Shown: positions 3,001 to 51,000 of the stretch, one piece after another
How positions within the stretch are numbered: position 1 is the first letter of the stretch
How the letters are laid out: each line of letters starts with the position of its first letter
NCBI RefSeq assembly: GCF_006345805.1
Contig: NC_043011.1
Coordinates: forward strand, 62,880,464 to 62,944,463
Direction of reading: 5' to 3'
Source of the DNA: Octopus sinensis
Taxonomy: Eukaryota
DNA length: 64,000 bases
Position numbers: made by a program

Positions 3001-6000
3001 CTTATCCCCACCCCGGACATGGCTGCCTATGTGGTAAAATTTGAAATCATTATTACTATCATTATTATTATTATTATTATTATTATTATATTATTATTAT
3101 ATTATTATTATTATTATTATTATCATTATTATTATTATCATTAATATCATTATTGTCATTATTATCATTATCATTATTATTATTATTATTATTATTATTA
3201 TTATTATTATTATTATTATTATTATTATCATTATTATCATTATTATTATTATTGTTATCATTATTATCATTATCATCATTATCATTATTATTATTATTAT
3301 TATTATTATCATTATTATCATTATCATTATTATTATGATTATTATTATTATTATTATTATTATTAATATTATTATTATCATTATTATCATTATCGTCATT
3401 ATTATTATTATCATTATTATCATTATTATCATTATCATCATTTTATTATTGTTATTATTATTATTATTATTATTATTATTATTATTACTATTACTATACG
3501 CTTCTCGAAATTGCTGGCCTTGTGCCAAAATTTGAAAGCAGTATTAGTCATGCACAGGTTTTCGAGCTGCCAGAACTTTTAGCACGCCGGACAAAATGCT
3601 TAGCAGCATCTGTTCCAAAATTAATTTCTCAGTTACAATTTCGCCGTGGTCGATTTTGCCCTTCATCCTTTCAGGGTACGACCTCATGACGATGATCGAT
3701 ACAATTAATTTACACGCTTCCTCGAAATTGATTACCCTTGTGCCCAAAAGAGAATTCAATACAATTCAAATGACGATTATGTCAGCTTGAAGTCGTTTAA
3801 CATACACAAATATTTAAACTTTATGTAAGTTCATATTTATAGTATCCTTGCAGTAAATCCGCTCAATTCAGACGTAAAACAATTTTTATTATTGCTACGA
3901 AGTATTTATTTTGTTTTAATATTATCTACTAGTGTAATCAACAGAACGTTATTTACGGTAACCCATTTATAAACTTTACACACAAATTTGTATTTCTCCT
4001 GGAGTTATTTACATTTTTATGTTTGTTTTACACAAATTGAAATCAAATGAGATTTTTTATCTCATTGCACAAGACGTAACAGTAGATTAGTTCCGCTGCC
4101 TTCACTGAAAATGCAAACGAAAAACAAAGCTTTCAAAACGAGAAAAAAGTTATTCAAAAGCACAATTTACTCACAACTATTTTTTTCATATTTGATTTGA
4201 AGATGTTTGTCAATTTTTGTTGTCTGTATGGCAACGTGAATGGGAAACGGTATGATATTCACAAACAATGTTCTAAATAATGTGGGCGTTTATGTATGTA
4301 ATATCTTATCCATATAGACACACAGGCATAGAAACACACACACACACGCACTCACTCACATATATACTCACACACTTGTACCCCCTATATATATATGTAT
4401 GTGTATATATATAATAATAATAATAATATAATAATAATAATAATAATAACGATATATATATATATATATATATATATATATATATATATATATATGTACA
4501 TACATACATATACACATTACATATATACATGCAGACATCAAAACATATATGTATATTATGTGTGTCATACACCATGATTTCAGCAAGGCATTTGACAGAG
4601 TGGACAACAAAAATCCTGCTGAAGAAACTGTCCAAAATTGGAGTCTACGGAAAGCTGCTGCAGTGGATCAAGTGTTTCCTCACGAACAGAACCGAACATG
4701 ATGTGTTTGAGGGAATAGGATCCAGCTCAGCGAAAGTAAGTGGTTGTGTTCCAAAAGGTAAGCGTTTGGGCCGAAACTTCTTCATTATTTACATCAACGA
4801 GATAGTAGATGTCATCAAACATTCTGCATTGAAAATCTTCGCAGATGATTCCAAACCCCGGAAAGCCATATTCGATTGAAGAGACCGAATCTGCCTTCAG
4901 TCAGATCTGTGTGCTATCGTCCAATGGGCGGAAAGAAACAATATGCATTTAAATGAAGATAAGTTTGATTTGATCCACTTTAAGAAAGAGGAAACTCTGA
5001 AATTACCATATGCTCTTCGCTCGGGCGATACCCTAGTGTCAACCAATAATACCAGAATTCTTGGAGAGATTGTTGATAACAATCTAAGCTGGAGGTCCCA
5101 CGTATACAGCAAGGTTTACTTGGCTCGCAAGATGTGCTCCTGGATTCTGAGAACTTTCCGGTCTAGAGATGCCTACATTATTATCCTTCTCTACTTTTGC
5201 CCGGCTTCGCCTTGAGTACTGTTGCCCACTGTGGTTTCTCCATACGAAACGACTCATTATGAAAGTAAAAACATTCCAGAGGTCAATAACATGAAAGATA
5301 GATGGCATGAGATAGCATTGACTCTTGGGGTCGACTAAAAAATAAATACTCGACATCTACTATCTCGAACGCCTCTGGGAGCGCTTCATCATTTGTGTTA
5401 TGTGGGAAATATTCCATCAATGTTGCACAAATGATGTTGGGATCAATTTTAAAACCCATACAAGACTTGGCCCCCGTGCTATCCGCCAACTACAAAAGTC
5501 GACTCGGTACACATAGCAACATTACTTCACAATTACTTTACCTCAACCGACCCAACTCTTTTCAATACCATACCAAAATACGTCCAAACGGAAACGGATC
5601 CCATAAAATTCCAATGTTTACTAGACAAATTTCTTTAAAAAAATCCCGGGCCAACATCCTACACGCGGATATGTCCCCAACAATAATAAAAATGTCTTAG
5701 GGTGGGCTATAGTGCTCCATGTAGGACTAAAGGCTTCACCAGGTGGTGCTACTGAGTTAGACATGGCCCGGGCCTATAATGGGCGAACCTATCAAAGTTA
5801 AAGTTATCATATGTACATACATACATATAGTACATGCATGCATTTATCAAAATATACATATATATGTGATTATATATATATATATATATATATATATATA
5901 TATATGTACTAACAAAAAGGGTTCAGCAAAGATTTGCTTCACCACACACCGAAGTTTAGAAATAGCAGCCAAAAATCTTAGCTATTTCTTCTATTTTAAA

Positions 6001-48000: not shown

Positions 48001-51000
48001 CGTGAGATCTTAGGCAGGCGTTTTCCAACATTTCGTGGAATAAAACCTTTTGCGCAGAAGTCAGTTGACAAGAAGCGATGTGGAACGCCATGCTTGTGTT
48101 TGAGTGAGTCATAATCCGTAATTCGATTTTTACATCCACGTATTTAATGAGGCATATCCATGTATTTAATGGAGTTTACTCTATAGCCAAACCGACCTAT
48201 CTGAGTACTAACTTGTACAGTCTTCCCACTAGAATCGGAGGCTCTGCATAAAAACTTTTAAAACATGGAAAAAGTAGATTCTTATATTCCTTTTGTGACT
48301 GAGCCATACAAACCAACAACAATTAAAAGAGCAGGACTATTATTTCTGGAAGAACAATTAAAATATACGTAAAGTATACTAGCCATCTCAATATAGCTAA
48401 CCACTAAGGGTGGGTGTTACTGTAGCTTTTAGCCCCATGAGATCATCGTCTCCAGCTGGCTTTAGGCTCACTTTCTGTGCCCTTATGGTATTTGCAAAGG
48501 GAGGTAATCCCTCTCTCGTAAACCTAAGTGATACGCACGGACTTCAGTTTCGAGGTATTTGCCTCTTGTCAACGTACGGCAATCACCGGTTTTCGATGAA
48601 GGAAGACCTGTTTGCAAATATTTATTTATTGTTTTTCCCAGTTACTTCCGTCACTGATTTCGAAAAACTGTCTGCAAGCGATAATAAATCTCTGAACGAG
48701 ATGTAAACAGTAACCACTCAACAACGTAAAGTATAATAGCCATCTCATTATGGCTAACCACTAAGGGTGGGTGTTACTGGAGCTTTTAGCCCTAGGAGAT
48801 CATCGTCCCCATGGAAAACCGGTGATTACCGTACGTTGACAAGAGGCAAATATCTCGAAACTGCAGTCCGTGCGTATCACTTAGGTTTAAGAGAGAGGGA
48901 TTACCTCCCTTTGCAAATACCATAAGGCACAGAAAGTGTGCCTAAAGCCAGCTGGAGACGATGATCTCCTGGGGCTAAAAGCTACAGTAACACCCACCCT
49001 TAGTGGTTAGCTATATTGAGATGGCTATTATACTTTACGGTGTCGAGCGGTTACTGTTTACATCTCGTTCAGAGATTTATTATAAATTAAAAAATATTTA
49101 ACAGGCAAAAAATGCAAAATAATTTTAAAATCGCGCAAGTCTGTTTTAATTACAGAAAATTATACCCAGGTATTCGATTTATGATTACAGACCAGCTTAT
49201 GAGAAATTTCATCCTCACACTTTGAAATAGATTTTATTGCTATTTTTATGACATTCTTGCCATTCTTTTTAATATTCATTAAATCCATTTCTGTCCAAGA
49301 ACACAATAACGGTAGAGTGTATCTTCATCGCAGAGGTCACGTCATAGTGGAATCGATTAGTAACGCAGAACTGTGGCATACGTAAAATTACTAATCAATA
49401 TTGATTCATACGAAGTCGGTAGGCTGAGAGAAATTATATGAAGGACTTAAGAATGGTGAATTGGCTGATTCTGTAGAATATCAAGCCAAATGTGATGCGG
49501 CATTTAATGAGCGCTCATAACGCTCTTAGAGAAGATGCGCGGTGAGAACGTTTCAAGATGATAGTTTCGATTCCTGGAGCGGGTTGGGCGTTATGTTCCT
49601 GGGCAAAACATTCATTTTCCCATTGCTGCAGTCCGCTGAGTTGTACATAAGAGACCATGCAGCGGTTTAGGGGCAACTTTGTGATGTCGGTCACTTATAG
49701 GCTATGAGAGCTTGGGTCGGGAATCGCATATGTCCTAGAAGTTACTAACCTCAGGCTCAGATTAAATCCTGCCGGGGCCATCTTTGACGCTCGCCGTTTC
49801 CTCTGTTGATAAAACGAGTTTCTTATTTCTTTACTACCCACAAGGGGCTAAACATGGAGGGGACAAACAAGGACAGACAAACGTATTAAGTCGATTATAT
49901 CGACCCCAGTGGGTAACTGGTACTTGTTTAATCGATCCCGAAAGGATGAAAGGCAAAGTCGACCTCGGCGGAATTTGAACTCAGAACGTAGCGGCAGACG
50001 AAATACCGCTAAGCATTTTGCCCGGCGTGCTAACGTTTCTGCCAGCTCGCCGCCCTTACCAATGACAAATGAGTTCTTCGTGAATACTAGTGTCGATAGA
50101 GATAATTGCCTTTTCCGTCGTCACTTTTAGATTTGCACCTCCATAAGGCATTTTTACGTTATTTCGCCATTCTATGTTCATATTTAATTTTTTGTTTTTC
50201 TCATTCGACCTACATCAACGAAATTAATAGCACAATCATATTAATTGAGCTAAGAGATAAATTAAAATTCAGATATGAGTCAGGTAGAAATCCATTTACA
50301 TATTTCGTACAAACGATCAGTAATTTTGATCTATGTCTCGTGAAAGAACCTCTAAAATGTTGGTTATATCCCGCGTGTGAATATGATGAAACGAGAAAGA
50401 GAAAGAAAGAAAGAGAAAGAGAGAGAGAGAGAGAGTGAGTGAGAGGAAGAGAGCAAATGTGTGTGCGCGTGTGTGTGCACATGCGCATGCGTGCTTGTGC
50501 ATAATTTTGTTGTTACTTTGGTCAAAATTACCTGTTTATAATATCTACTTTGAGCTTATTCAGTAAATTAATGTACCCGTTCCCTAATCCGTTTGTTGGG
50601 AATTATCTGTTTCAACGGATAGTATGTAATAGCTCTGACTATAATAACGTCATACTAGGGTTTAAATTAAGCCCCAAAATAAAAATTGAAACAAAAAGAA
50701 TTGCCTATTACTTAGAAGCATTAATTTCATATCGATCTCATTGCATACTTCTTTACGCAGAAACCATTCCTGGAAAGCAGGTTTATACATGAAGTATTCC
50801 GACCTTGACTATTCTATCTTCATTTCAAGCATCGCACATATCGTACTACATGGTACATTGCGTTCATCTTTTCCAAGATGGGAGGACCTGATTTGAGTTA
50901 TATTTTATTATTTCTGCCTCCGCCTGAGGTTATGTAGATGCCCTTCATTGACTCATTGACTATAGTAGAGAAATGTGCCATTCCATAAAACTTAGGTGCA

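What the first reader, a model, noticed from the sequence alone, without database searches (positions are those of the whole stretch)
5908..49083. A diverse population of hammerhead-bearing, non-coding retrozyme-like elements with a shared diverging-arm architecture
Seen: seven elements of largely different sequence (5908-6703, 24578-24755, 25670-25856, 35377-36522, 38941-39649, 45718-45900, 48368-49083) each carry a type I hammerhead motif, usually with a palindromic helix III, and no ORF. In each, two ribozyme-sense arms read outward from a central junction (about 6510, 24610, 25727, 35488, 39203, 45831, 48810). Five abut or lie between (TA)n tracts. Where a period is measurable it is about 357, 467, 555 or 577 bp, and the arm ends are permuted. 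Established: PLE terminal repeats and metazoan non-LTR retrozymes carry such hammerheads, which can cleave as dimers, and retrozymes form small circular RNAs. Inference: these are non-autonomous, probably circular or multimeric RNA elements mobilised by the co-resident PLE RT/GIY-YIG and integrated by priming on both target strands. I do not recall these families being described in cephalopods, but I cannot check that.
Basis: partly seen in the sequence, partly recalled or inferred. Interest (0 to 1): 0.9.

Follow-up and report, generated by a model that had tools for sequence, protein, structure and literature searches.

The report
Hammerhead retrozyme-like repeats in TA microsatellites
These are short non-coding retroelements carrying hammerhead ribozyme motifs, inserted as back-to-back inverted copies mostly into (TA)n tracts beside dead Penelope-like elements: a local example of a kind of mobile element already described in other animals.

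Summary
All seven non-coding repeats exist where stated. I confirmed the inverted arms, the junctions (about 6510, 25727, 35488, 39203, 48810) and the periods (576, 555-557, 467, 357 bp). Five elements sit in (TA)n.

The hammerhead claim holds only in part:
- Elements 3, 4 and 5 have complete type I motifs with a canonical core.
- Element 7 has a complete motif with a U3-A8 core.
- Element 1 has a CCGAUGA-core variant.
- Element 6 has a minimal motif without a proper helix III.
- Element 2's motif is broken.

A strict descriptor gave 6 hits against a mean of 0.06 in 300 shuffles. Helix I, which the descriptor did not require, is present in 5 of 7 independent motif families. Rfam finds nothing at gathering score.

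Four 5'-truncated Penelope-like (RT/GIY-YIG) remnants share the window. Two directly abut (TA)n and a third lies about 40 nt from a tract. Two carry a U3-A8 hammerhead in the 3' UTR. None shares sequence with the elements.

Best reading: PLE-dependent, non-autonomous retrozyme-like elements copied from concatemeric or circular RNA, with cDNA primed from both strands of (TA)n. Every ingredient is already in print, so these are new members of a known kind. RNA circles, cleavage, the mobilising PLE and the host taxon remain untested.

The parts
5907..6509 (-). Element 1, left arm: 603 nt, about 1.05 units of 576 bp in ribozyme sense. Its outer (3') end abuts (TA)n 5852-5905.
6089..6170 (-). Element 1 hammerhead-like motif: helix I of 5 bp, core CCGAUGA (C where U4 is expected), a long A/U-rich helix II region, GAAA, an 8-nt A..U palindrome and C17.
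6512..6704 (+). Element 1, right arm: 193 nt that crosses the unit boundary. Its 3' end runs into (TA)n 6702-6812.
24581..24755 (+). Element 2: right arm 24608-24755 with an interrupted core, helix II, GAAA and a near-palindrome. The inverted stretch 24581-24612 is only 32 nt at 81%. Membership is weak.
25664..25727 (-). Element 3, left arm. It holds a clean motif (core at 25723, H17 at 25692): CUGAAGA, a 3-bp helix II above a U.U, GAAA and a 10-nt palindrome. Helix I is cut off by the junction.
25728..25855 (+). Element 3, right arm. It carries the same motif with one inserted base in helix III. Its 3' end abuts (AT)n 25856-25913.
35374..35488 (-). Element 4, left arm: 5'-truncated inverted copy of unit positions 35761-35871. 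Its outer end runs into (TA)n.
35485..36522 (+). Element 4, right arm: about 1.87 tandem units of 555-557 bp. Each unit holds a type I motif (cores at 35629 and 36184, H17 at 35673 and 36228). Its 3' end abuts (TA)n 36522-36619.
38941..39209 (-). Element 5, left arm. It starts inside the helix II insert, contains the 3' half of the hammerhead, and crosses the unit boundary. Its 3' end abuts (AT)n 38865-38942.
39203..39649 (+). Element 5, right arm (447 of 467 unit positions). It ends at a (CA)n(TA)n tract.
39430..39528 (+). Element 5 hammerhead, the best-formed one: helix I of 8 bp, CUGAUGA, a 4-bp helix II closed by G-C with an insert of about 50 nt, GAAA, a 12-nt palindromic helix III and C17.
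45724..45855 (-). Element 6: one arm (45835 down to 45724) with a minimal hammerhead-like motif at 45820-45775, plus a 20-nt inverted copy of its end at 45836-45855. The motif has helix I of 5 bp, CUGAUGA, a bulged A, helix II of 6 bp and GAAA, with no paired helix III. No (TA)n nearby.
48367..48811 (-). Element 7, left arm: 1.24 units of 357 bp, with a decayed copy of the motif (core at 48572, helix III palindrome broken).
48810..49083 (+). Element 7, right arm. Its hammerhead at 48830-48874 has core UUGACAA (U3-A8), helix I of 6 bp, helix II of 4 bp, GAAA, an 8-nt palindrome and C17. Rfam Hammerhead_1 scores 19.6 bits over the full model.
41551..43528 (-). PLE copy B: 5'-truncated, with (TA)n at both ends. 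It holds an open frame of 406 codons (RT C-terminal half plus GIY-YIG) and a 3' UTR with a U3-A8 hammerhead at 41653-41589.
6813..8056 (-). PLE copy A: 83% identical to copy B, with a coding remnant at 7562-7981. The same U3-A8 motif starts at 6899 (H17 at 6868), with one helix II mismatch. Its 3' end abuts the (TA)n tract shared with element 1.
36658..37216 (+). PLE copy C, from a different family: the last 80 or so codons of the ORF (36658-36960) plus a 3' UTR. A CCGAUGA...GAAA...12-nt palindrome...C arrangement lies at 37166-37199, with no helix I. It follows (TA)n 36522-36619 and ends in (TTA)n.

Best explanation
These are old insertions of several families of small, non-coding, hammerhead-bearing retroelements. 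They are retrozyme-like, non-autonomous dependants of Penelope-like elements.

SHOWN BY THE SEQUENCE:
- No coding capacity.
- Units of 357-576 bp with low G+C.
- Type I hammerhead motifs, or variants of them, on one strand.
- Two arms in opposite orientation whose ribozyme-sense 3' ends face outward.
- Arms that exceed one unit or cross the unit boundary and stop at different unit positions.
- Junctions with 0-7 nt of overlap.
- A strong preference for (TA)n, shared with the PLE remnants in the same window.

INFERRED MECHANISM:
1. A PLE RT/GIY-YIG enzyme cuts a (TA)n tract.
2. (TA)n is its own reverse complement, so both strands offer the same 3' end.
3. Each end anneals to an A/U-rich patch of a concatemeric or circular ribozyme RNA and primes cDNA synthesis.
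4. The two cDNAs run toward each other and are joined in the middle by microhomology.
5. The hammerhead would serve to cut concatemeric transcripts into monomers, acting as dimers where helix III is a short palindrome.

None of the RNA steps is shown here.
For: MOTIF:
- The strict type I descriptor gave 6 hits (elements 3, 4 twice, 5, 7 and the PLE-B tail) against a mean of 0.06 and a maximum of 2 in 300 dinucleotide shuffles.
- Helix I was not part of that descriptor. It has 8, 7, 6, 6 and 5 pairs before the second mismatch in element 5, PLE-A/B, element 7, element 1 and element 4. The null probabilities are 0.0099, 0.015, 0.025, 0.025 and 0.045.
- Rfam aligns Hammerhead_1 end to end on element 7 (19.6 bits, E 0.012 in a 121-nt search). 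It aligns Hammerhead_HH9 on the PLE-B tail (18.9 bits, E 0.0085 in an 81-nt search).

ARCHITECTURE:
- Periods and permuted arms.
- Ribozyme sense points outward in 5 of 5 elements with a readable motif plus an inverted arm (1, 3, 4, 5, 7).
- Four of these five junctions are not palindromic. The arms start at different unit positions, which argues for two separate cDNAs rather than one snap-back.

TARGET:
- 8 of 14 arm ends are within 2 nt of (TA)n, against 4.3% of random positions. PLE-A's 3' end and both ends of PLE-B are likewise.

NON-CODING:
- 0 of 31 frames hit Pfam. No tblastn hit to 7 PLE proteins lies inside any element.

RNA-LIKE UNITS:
- Circular-fold z-scores are -5.05 (element 1), -5.10 (element 4) and -4.00 (element 7). 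The linear fold of the element 5 right arm gives -3.68. Two control segments give -0.12 and -0.39 (the first control was 50600-51155 and is mislabelled in the output).
- G+C is 0.34-0.42.

PLE PRESENCE:
- P0001 matches proteins of 720-800 aa that carry RVT_1 and GIY-YIG. The window holds four coding remnants.

PUBLISHED PRECEDENT:
- PMC8557442 (passages, and section 11 in full): tandem plus inverted 5'-truncated PLE insertions and (TA)n bias.
- PMC7229834 (passages): non-LTR retrozymes as short tandem repeats with a type I hammerhead and circular RNA, and a U.U at the base of helix II in an active axolotl motif.
- bioRxiv 10.64898/2026.07.22.740005 (abstract, section 14, passages): retrozymes as PLE derivatives.
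Against: - Rfam gives 0 hits at gathering score. No hammerhead model matched element 4, element 5 or element 3, even at E<=10.
- Local folds of the motif segments are not exceptional, with z from -1.99 to +0.56. The minimum-energy fold of element 4's and element 3's motif is not the hammerhead fold.
- The 3'-half motif alone is not enriched: 14 observed against 8.0 +/- 3.1 in shuffles.
- Several cores deviate. There is U.U at the base of helix II in elements 3 and 4, U3-A8 in element 7, C4 in element 1 and an interrupted core in element 2, so several may never have cleaved.
- Units of 467-576 bp lie above the 150-450 bp quoted for metazoan retrozymes (PMC7229834 passages).
- Only element 4 shows two complete tandem units.
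- No element resembles the 3' UTR of PLE A, B or C (word 7, E<=0.01), and those PLE copies are truncated.
- Arms of one element differ by 2-8%, so the insertions are old and activity today is doubtful.
- A linear concatemeric transcript explains the permutation as well as a circle does.
- No other genomic copies could be examined.
Confidence: 0.7

Rival explanations
1. They are severely 5'-truncated copies, or solo pseudo-LTR pieces, of autonomous PLE families whose coding bodies lie elsewhere. On this view they are not a separate class of non-autonomous elements.
For: - PLE insertions are typically heavily 5'-truncated, tandem and accompanied by an inverted truncated copy (PMC8557442 passages).
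- PLE copies A, B and C in this window carry hammerhead-like motifs 30-90 nt from their 3' ends.
- Elements 2, 3 and 6 are shorter than 200 bp and show no period, so nothing separates them from a PLE 3' fragment.
- The CCGAUGA core is shared by element 1 and PLE copy C: 2 of the 3 occurrences in the window lie in such a context.
Against: - Elements 1, 4, 5 and 7 repeat with periods of 357-576 bp and contain no ORF. A tandem autonomous PLE would repeat at its full length of several kb.
- No element matches any of the three PLE 3' UTRs present.
Confidence: 0.2
2. They are DNA-level products: foldback or MITE-type DNA transposons inserted at TA, or palindromic duplications arising at fragile (TA)n tracts. 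On this view the hammerhead-like strings play no role.
For: - Element 3 is a 128-bp near-perfect palindrome flanked by (TA)n. It scores as a hairpin against many miRNA models.
- An unrelated hairpin repeat lies at 25143-25272.
- Long (TA)n can form cruciforms (recalled).
Against: - The arms are unequal, and the inverted repeat is not terminal in any of elements 1, 3, 4, 5 or 7.
- In 4 of those 5 the arms start at different unit positions.
- The arms are circularly permuted tandem copies.
- Motif enrichment and helix I complementarity are far beyond chance.
- Ribozyme sense points outward in 5 of 5.
Confidence: 0.05
3. They are ordinary small satellite or tandem repeats that grew by unequal exchange near microsatellites. 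On this view the hammerheads are relics of no consequence for their spread.
For: - Element 4 is a plain 1.87-unit tandem repeat.
- The bioRxiv preprint discusses local amplification of retrozyme-derived minisatellites (passages).
Against: - Copy number is below 2 units everywhere.
- Each locus has an inverted arm and ends in (TA)n, which unequal exchange does not produce.
- Five unrelated or barely related families show the same layout.
Confidence: 0.05

Closest known systems
Metazoan non-LTR retrozymes (coral, mussel, axolotl; PMC7229834, passages seen)
   Same: - Non-coding, low G+C, with a type I hammerhead in each unit.
- Head-to-tail unit organisation and self-paired monomers.
- Co-occurrence with PLEs.
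- A U.U at the base of helix II has a precedent in the active axolotl HHR_Amex2.
   Different: - Units here are 357-576 bp, against about 150-450 bp.
- Arrays are under 2 units, where published arrays run up to tens of units.
- Each locus has an inverted second arm and sits in (TA)n, features not mentioned in the passages I read.
- Circular RNA and cleavage are not tested here.
Minimal hammerheads of Penelope-like elements (PMC4209133, passages seen)
   Same: - Short palindromic helix III, suggesting action as dimers.
- U3-A8 core covariation (element 7, PLE-A/B).
[quoted passage not shown]
- Motifs in pairs on opposite strands a few hundred bp apart.
   Different: - Those motifs lie in the flanking repeats of RT-coding PLEs or in their truncated copies. 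Elements 1, 4, 5 and 7 repeat at sub-kb periods without any ORF.
- I did not see a C4 (CCGAUGA) core in the passages read. The figures and supplements that list 'exceptional core changes' were not visible.
PLE insertion architecture and (TA)n targeting (Neptune/Nematis/Naiad/Hydra clades; PMC8557442, passages and section 11)
   Same: - 5' truncation, partial tandems and an adjacent inverted 5'-truncated copy.
- Insertion into (TA)n, so that target duplications cannot be read.
   Different: Here this architecture is borne by non-coding units, not by the PLE itself. The PLE copies A and B in this window are simple truncated copies without an inverted arm.
Non-autonomous Chlamys PLE derivatives such as MRC1 in Chlamydomonas (PMC8557442, passage)
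   Same: Non-autonomous PLE dependants that form pseudo-LTRs and multicopy head-to-tail insertions.
   Different: Those share their 3' ends with autonomous families and mostly lack canonical hammerheads. Here I found no 3' similarity to the PLEs in the window.
Twin priming of human L1 (recalled, no call)
   Same: Both strands of the target prime cDNA synthesis, giving an inverted segment joined by microhomology.
   Different: In L1 the second primer anneals internally on a linear mRNA, which gives an inversion within one copy. Here both arms can exceed or cross a unit boundary, which needs a repeated or circular template.

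Membership tests
Hammerhead ribozyme, type I | Conserved core boxes CUGANGA and GAAA in the order helix I - core - helix II - GAAA - helix III - H17 - helix I | tested here: met
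   - Canonical boxes in type I order in elements 3, 4, 5 and 6 (4 of 7).
- U3-A8 variant in element 7.
- C4 variant in element 1.
- Interrupted core in element 2.
-.
Hammerhead ribozyme, type I | Three helices with complementary strands and a cleavable H17 after U16.1 | tested here: inconclusive
   - All three helices plus H17 are present in elements 4, 5 and 7 and in PLE-A/B.
- Element 1 has helix I, helix III and H17, but a poor helix II.
- Element 3 lacks helix I, which is cut off by the junction.
- Element 6 lacks a paired helix III.
- Element 2 is doubtful.
-.
Hammerhead ribozyme, type I | Score at or above the curated Rfam gathering score (RF00163 = 34 bits) | tested here: not met
   0 hits at gathering score. 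The best sub-threshold matches are 19.6 bits for element 7 and 18.9 bits to HH9 for the PLE-B tail. Elements 3, 4 and 5 gave none.
Hammerhead ribozyme, type I | Self-cleavage | not testable with these tools
   Needs in vitro transcription of monomers and dimers.
Non-LTR retrozyme | Short head-to-tail tandem repeats (about 150-450 bp), each with a type I hammerhead | tested here: inconclusive
   - Element 4 has 2 of 2 units with the motif, but its period is 555-557 bp.
- Elements 1, 5 and 7 show unit boundaries crossed (periods 576, 467, 357) with fewer than 2 units.
- Elements 2, 3 and 6 show no period.
-.
Non-LTR retrozyme | No protein-coding capacity, low G+C (<45%) | tested here: met
   0 of 31 frames hit Pfam. 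No PLE tblastn hit lies inside any element. G+C is 0.34-0.42.
Non-LTR retrozyme | Expressed as unit-length linear and circular RNA | not testable with these tools
   No transcriptome is available. The only indirect sign is that the units fold well as circles (z -4.0 to -5.1).
Non-LTR retrozyme | Co-occurrence with PLEs in the same genome | tested here: met
   Four PLE coding remnants lie in the window. P0001's relatives carry RVT_1 plus GIY-YIG.
Penelope-like element (autonomous copy or its fragment) | RT and GIY-YIG coding sequence within or continuous with the element | tested here: not met
   0 of 7 elements have one. PLE copies A and C lie next to elements 1 and 4 but are separated from them by (TA)n and are unrelated in sequence.
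Penelope-like element (autonomous copy or its fragment) | Sequence similarity to the terminal (pseudo-LTR) region of an autonomous PLE | tested here: not met
   No match to the 3' UTRs of PLE A, B or C at word 7, E<=0.01. Only these three could be compared. The rest of the genome is not available.
Penelope-like element (insertion style) | 5' truncation, partial tandem, adjacent inverted 5'-truncated copy, microsatellite target | tested here: met
   The inverted arm is robust in 5 of 7 elements and the (TA)n target holds in 5 of 7.
MITE / foldback DNA transposon | Terminal inverted repeats at both ends with a target-site duplication | tested here: not met
   The inverted repeats are central, not terminal. 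The arms are unequal and permuted.

The most novel reading that the evidence does not exclude
The loci may be fossil footprints of a specific integration route that has not been set out for retrozymes. A PLE nuclease opens a self-complementary (TA)n tract. Both 3' ends anneal to A/U-rich patches of a circular or concatemeric ribozyme RNA. Two cDNAs are made and then joined by 0-7 nt of microhomology. This would explain why small ribozyme RNAs, unlike the PLE copies beside them, almost always land as twin outward-facing arms.

A second point: a C4 core (CCGAUGA) shared by a non-autonomous element and an unrelated PLE tail would be a further natural hammerhead core variant, alongside U3-A8.
Probability: 0.3. 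Interest if true: 0.55.

Novelty: new member of a known kind. Interest (0 to 1): 0.35.

Why it matters
If the reading is right, this window holds at least five little-related families of PLE-dependent ribozyme elements from an invertebrate genome in which, as far as my library searches go, such elements have not been reported.

The twin-arm, permuted layout is a readable record of how PLE enzymes integrate small RNAs:
- it shows which end primes;
- it shows that both target strands are used;
- it shows that the template was longer than one unit.

PLE integration has no in vitro system yet (PMC8557442, passage), so such fossils are useful constraints.

The practical value is modest:
- better repeat annotation, since these loci would otherwise be called unknown repeats or false miRNA hairpins;
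- a set of natural core variants (U3-A8, C4, U.U at the base of helix II) to test for cleavage.

Tried and rejected
- RFAM AT WINDOW SCALE. Gathering mode gave nothing. E-value mode returned 225 rows, of which the 150 listed were almost all low-complexity (TA)n or hairpin matches to miRNA models. The 75 lower rows were not shown. I regard the miRNA hits as artefacts of (TA)n and of the inverted arms.\n- PFAM ON P0001. No hit, even at E<=10. The PLE identity rests on the homologue search and tblastn instead.\n- MINUS-STRAND CUGANGA IN ELEMENT 4 (35552, 36107). No GAAA or helix partners, so I took these as chance.\n- A 3'-HALF MOTIF AS A STAND-ALONE DETECTOR. Not enriched, at 14 against 8.0 +/- 3.1. 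Hits at 13229, 20921, 22641, 37968 and 8757 were not followed up and are probably chance.\n- HOST IDENTIFICATION THROUGH THE MARINER ORF. The best named relative is a mantis-shrimp protein at 83%, so the host stays unidentified.\n- CONSENSUS FOLD OF THE 3' MODULE SHARED BY ELEMENTS 1, 4 AND 5. Only 10 pairs at -1.7 kcal/mol, and 2 pairs with double changes. This is no usable covariation.\n- LOCAL FOLDING OF NINE MOTIF SEGMENTS. z-scores are not significant.\n- A JOINED 467-nt ELEMENT 5 UNIT was not built. Genome-wide copies, Dfam/Repbase comparison and RNA evidence therefore stayed unchecked.\n- SUPPLEMENTS CLOSED: the lists of hammerheads and PLE families by species in the supplements of PMC8557442, PMC4209133 and PMC7229834 may already include cephalopod or other mollusc families and the C4 core.

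Full report
WHAT IS THERE

The window is AT-rich and contains no N. It is full of microsatellites: 58 merged pure (TA)>=6 tracts cover 3.9% of it.

Element 1 has a 576-bp period (5907->6483). Its two pairs of inverted arms, 5907-5997/6512-6602 (97%) and 6376-6509/6576-6709 (93%), meet at 6510-6511. Element 3 is a palindrome, 25664-25791, centred at 25727|25728. Its right arm runs on to 25855.

Element 4 has a 115-nt left arm (35374-35488) that is the reverse complement of 35761-35871. Its right arm is about 1.87 units long (35485-36522), with a period of 555-557 bp.

Element 5 has arms 38941-39209 and 39203-39649. The left arm runs past the point where the right arm stops, adds 20 bases, and re-enters the sequence with which the right arm begins. 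The unit is therefore 467 bp and the arms are permuted.

Element 7 has a 357-bp period (48367->48724), with arms meeting at 48810/48811.

Elements 2 and 6 are much weaker. Their inverted stretches are 32 nt at 81% and 20 nt at 100%.

HAMMERHEADS

Rfam finds nothing at gathering score. The permissive run is swamped by (TA)n and hairpin matches to miRNA models.

I therefore wrote a type I descriptor with these requirements: a core of CUGANGA or UUGANAA; a helix II of at least 3 bp, with one non-pair allowed at its base; GAAA; an even A..U palindrome of 6-14 nt that is not pure A/T; and H17. It finds six sites: element 3's left arm, both units of element 4, element 5, element 7, and the 3' UTR of a PLE at 41639-41608. 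In 300 dinucleotide shuffles the mean is 0.06 and the maximum is 2, and 17 of 300 shuffles give one hit or more.

Helix I was not part of that descriptor, so it serves as an independent check. The counts of pairs before the second mismatch are 8 (element 5), 7 (PLE-A/B), 6 (element 7), 6 (element 1) and 5 (element 4). The null probabilities are 0.0099, 0.015, 0.025, 0.025 and 0.045. Element 3 and PLE-C score 0.

On short stretches, Rfam's Hammerhead_1 aligns end to end with element 7 (19.6 bits against a gathering score of 34; E 0.012), including the consensus of loop 2. Hammerhead_HH9 aligns with the PLE-B tail (18.9 bits against 52; E 0.0085). No hammerhead model matched element 3, 4 or 5.

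Motif quality therefore differs from element to element:
- Element 5 is textbook, apart from an insert of about 50 nt in helix II.
- Elements 3 and 4 have a U.U at the base of helix II.
- Element 7 has UUGACAA.
- Element 1 has no CUGANGA at all. It has CCGAUGA between a 5-bp helix I and GAAA plus an 8-nt palindrome plus C17.
- Element 6 has helix I, CUGAUGA, a bulged A, a 6-bp helix II and GAAA, but its helix III positions do not pair.
- Element 2's core is interrupted at the junction.

Local folding energies of the motif segments are unremarkable, with z from -1.99 to +0.56. The minimum-energy fold reproduces helices I and II for elements 5, 7, 1 and 6 and for PLE-B, but not for elements 3 and 4.

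CCGATGA occurs only three times on both strands of the window. Two of those sit upstream of a GAAA-palindrome-C, one in element 1 and one in the 3' UTR of PLE copy C at 37166-37199. I take this as a real shared variant or shared ancestry. Its activity is unknown.

THE NEIGHBOURS

The frame 42398-43615 (-) gives a 406-residue product, P0001. Pfam does not recognise it. It does match 158 longer proteins at E<=0.001, the best at 59% identity. These are 712-899 aa long and carry precomputed RVT_1 and GIY-YIG domains.

A tblastn search with 7 of those proteins finds four PLE remnants:
- Copy B, 42333-43528 (-), covering about residues 363-752.
- Copy A, 7562-7981 (-). It belongs to a DNA match of 83% identity over 1382 nt, 6752-8056 against 41492-42840.
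- Copy C, 36658-36960 (+), from another family.
- Copy D, 37876-38007 (-), a weak match.

Copies A and B have (TA)n at their ends and carry the U3-A8 motif near the 3' end. None of the four lies inside an element, and no element frame hits Pfam (0 of 31).

A sensitive blastn (word 7, E<=0.01) finds no similarity between any element and the 3' UTRs of copies A, B or C. It does link element 1 to element 4 (70-72%), and weakly links element 4 to element 5. The alignment shows a 3' module and an end motif shared by elements 1, 4 and 5. Elements 3 and 7 stand alone.

HOW THEY PROBABLY AROSE

Wherever the motif can be read in an element with a solid inverted arm (1, 3, 4, 5 and 7, so 5 of 5), the ribozyme strand reads outward. 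The outer ends are therefore RNA 3' ends.

Eight of 14 outer ends lie within 2 nt of (TA)n, against 4.3% for random positions (with the correction for element 3). The template stretch at most arm ends is A/T-rich. This would let a (TA)n 3' end anneal there. That step is inference, and the boundary calls are biased by the A/T-rich flank.

The central junctions show a 2-nt gap (element 1); overlaps of 4, 7 and 2 nt (elements 4, 5 and 7); and an exact palindrome (element 3). In four of the five, the arms start at different unit positions. This fits two separately primed cDNAs joined by microhomology better than a single snap-back. Element 3 fits either.

Arms longer than a unit, or crossing its boundary, need a template with more than one unit. 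That template could be a concatemeric transcript or a circle, and DNA alone cannot tell which.

The units fold much better than their shuffles when treated as circles. The z-scores are -5.05, -5.10 and -4.00, with -3.68 for the linear right arm of element 5. Two control segments give -0.12 and -0.39. This matches the self-paired retrozyme RNAs described in PMC7229834.

COMPARISON WITH WHAT IS KNOWN

- PMC8557442 (passages, and section 11 in full) describes PLE insertions as 5'-truncated partial tandems with an adjacent inverted truncated copy. It also reports (TA)n bias in several clades and non-autonomous PLE derivatives.
- PMC7229834 (passages) defines metazoan non-LTR retrozymes and reports a U.U at the base of helix II in an active axolotl motif.
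- The preprint 10.64898/2026.07.22.740005 (abstract, section 14, passages) argues that retrozymes derive from PLE termini. The words 'head-to-head' and 'opposite' do not occur in it.

The finding therefore fits a known kind. What I did not see in print is the twin outward-facing, permuted arms as the usual form of retrozyme insertion, and a C4 core. However, figures and supplements were not visible.

On cephalopods, searches for 'hammerhead ribozyme' + 'octopus' and 'retrozyme' + 'cephalopod' returned only PMC8557442 as relevant. A 2026 Octopus vulgaris repeat annotation (PMC13282606, passages) lists PLEs but contains neither 'hammerhead' nor 'retrozyme'. None of my calls shows that the window comes from a cephalopod.

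VERDICT

The architecture, periods, (TA)n context and absence of ORFs all hold, while the hammerhead claim holds fully for four of the seven elements.

'Non-autonomous', 'PLE-style' and 'multi-unit template' stand. Circles, cleavage and the identity of the mobilising PLE are open.

These are new members of a known kind, of moderate interest.

Noticed in passing
window 36658-37216 (+): A third PLE remnant from a different family, directly after the (TA)n that ends element 4. It holds about the last 80 codons of the ORF plus a 3' UTR ending in (TTA)n. A CCGAUGA...GAAA...12-nt palindrome arrangement lies at 37166-37199, with no helix I.
   Followed up: partly
window 37876-38007 (-), and 35210-35320 against 38036-38145: A weak fourth PLE C-terminal remnant (tblastn E 1e-3 to 2e-6). 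An 85% inverted match links the sequence just left of element 4 with 38036-38145.
   Followed up: no
window 16347-16474, 43681-43827, 60594-60685: Another repeat family (73-78% identical). All three copies start directly at the right edge of a (TA)n tract, which suggests a further (TA)n-targeting retroelement. I did not recognise a complete hammerhead in it.
   Followed up: partly
window 36640-36690 and 43586-43630: A motif of about 45 nt at the start of PLE copy C recurs between the two (TA)n tracts at the 5' end of PLE copy B, in the same orientation. Its origin is unclear.
   Followed up: no
window 512-608, 1947-2111, 2839-3004, 3563-3675, 20487-20605, 44179-44404, 49818-50064, 52278-52992, 56985-57322, 59447-59579: A SINE-like family with at least 10 copies. 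It includes a 164-bp tandem pair at 52482-52809.
   Followed up: no
window 13679-14506 (-): A mariner/Mos1-type transposase remnant (Pfam Transposase_1, E 8.5e-24). The closest relative is 85% identical and unnamed. The best named one is a mantis-shrimp protein at 83%.
   Followed up: partly
window 28578-29324 (-): A frame with a zf-RVT domain (E 5e-8), probably the tail of a LINE-type reverse transcriptase. Long (ATAG)n/(AGAT)n tracts flank it.
   Followed up: no
window 25143-25272: A 130-bp hairpin repeat (79% self-complementary), unrelated to the hammerhead elements. It scores as a false miRNA precursor in Rfam's permissive mode.
   Followed up: no
window 57714-57832 and many (TA)n tracts: (CA)n(TA)n(TG)n-type tracts give miRNA-family matches with E down to 5e-10 in Rfam's permissive mode, all far below gathering scores. 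These are low-complexity artefacts.
   Followed up: yes
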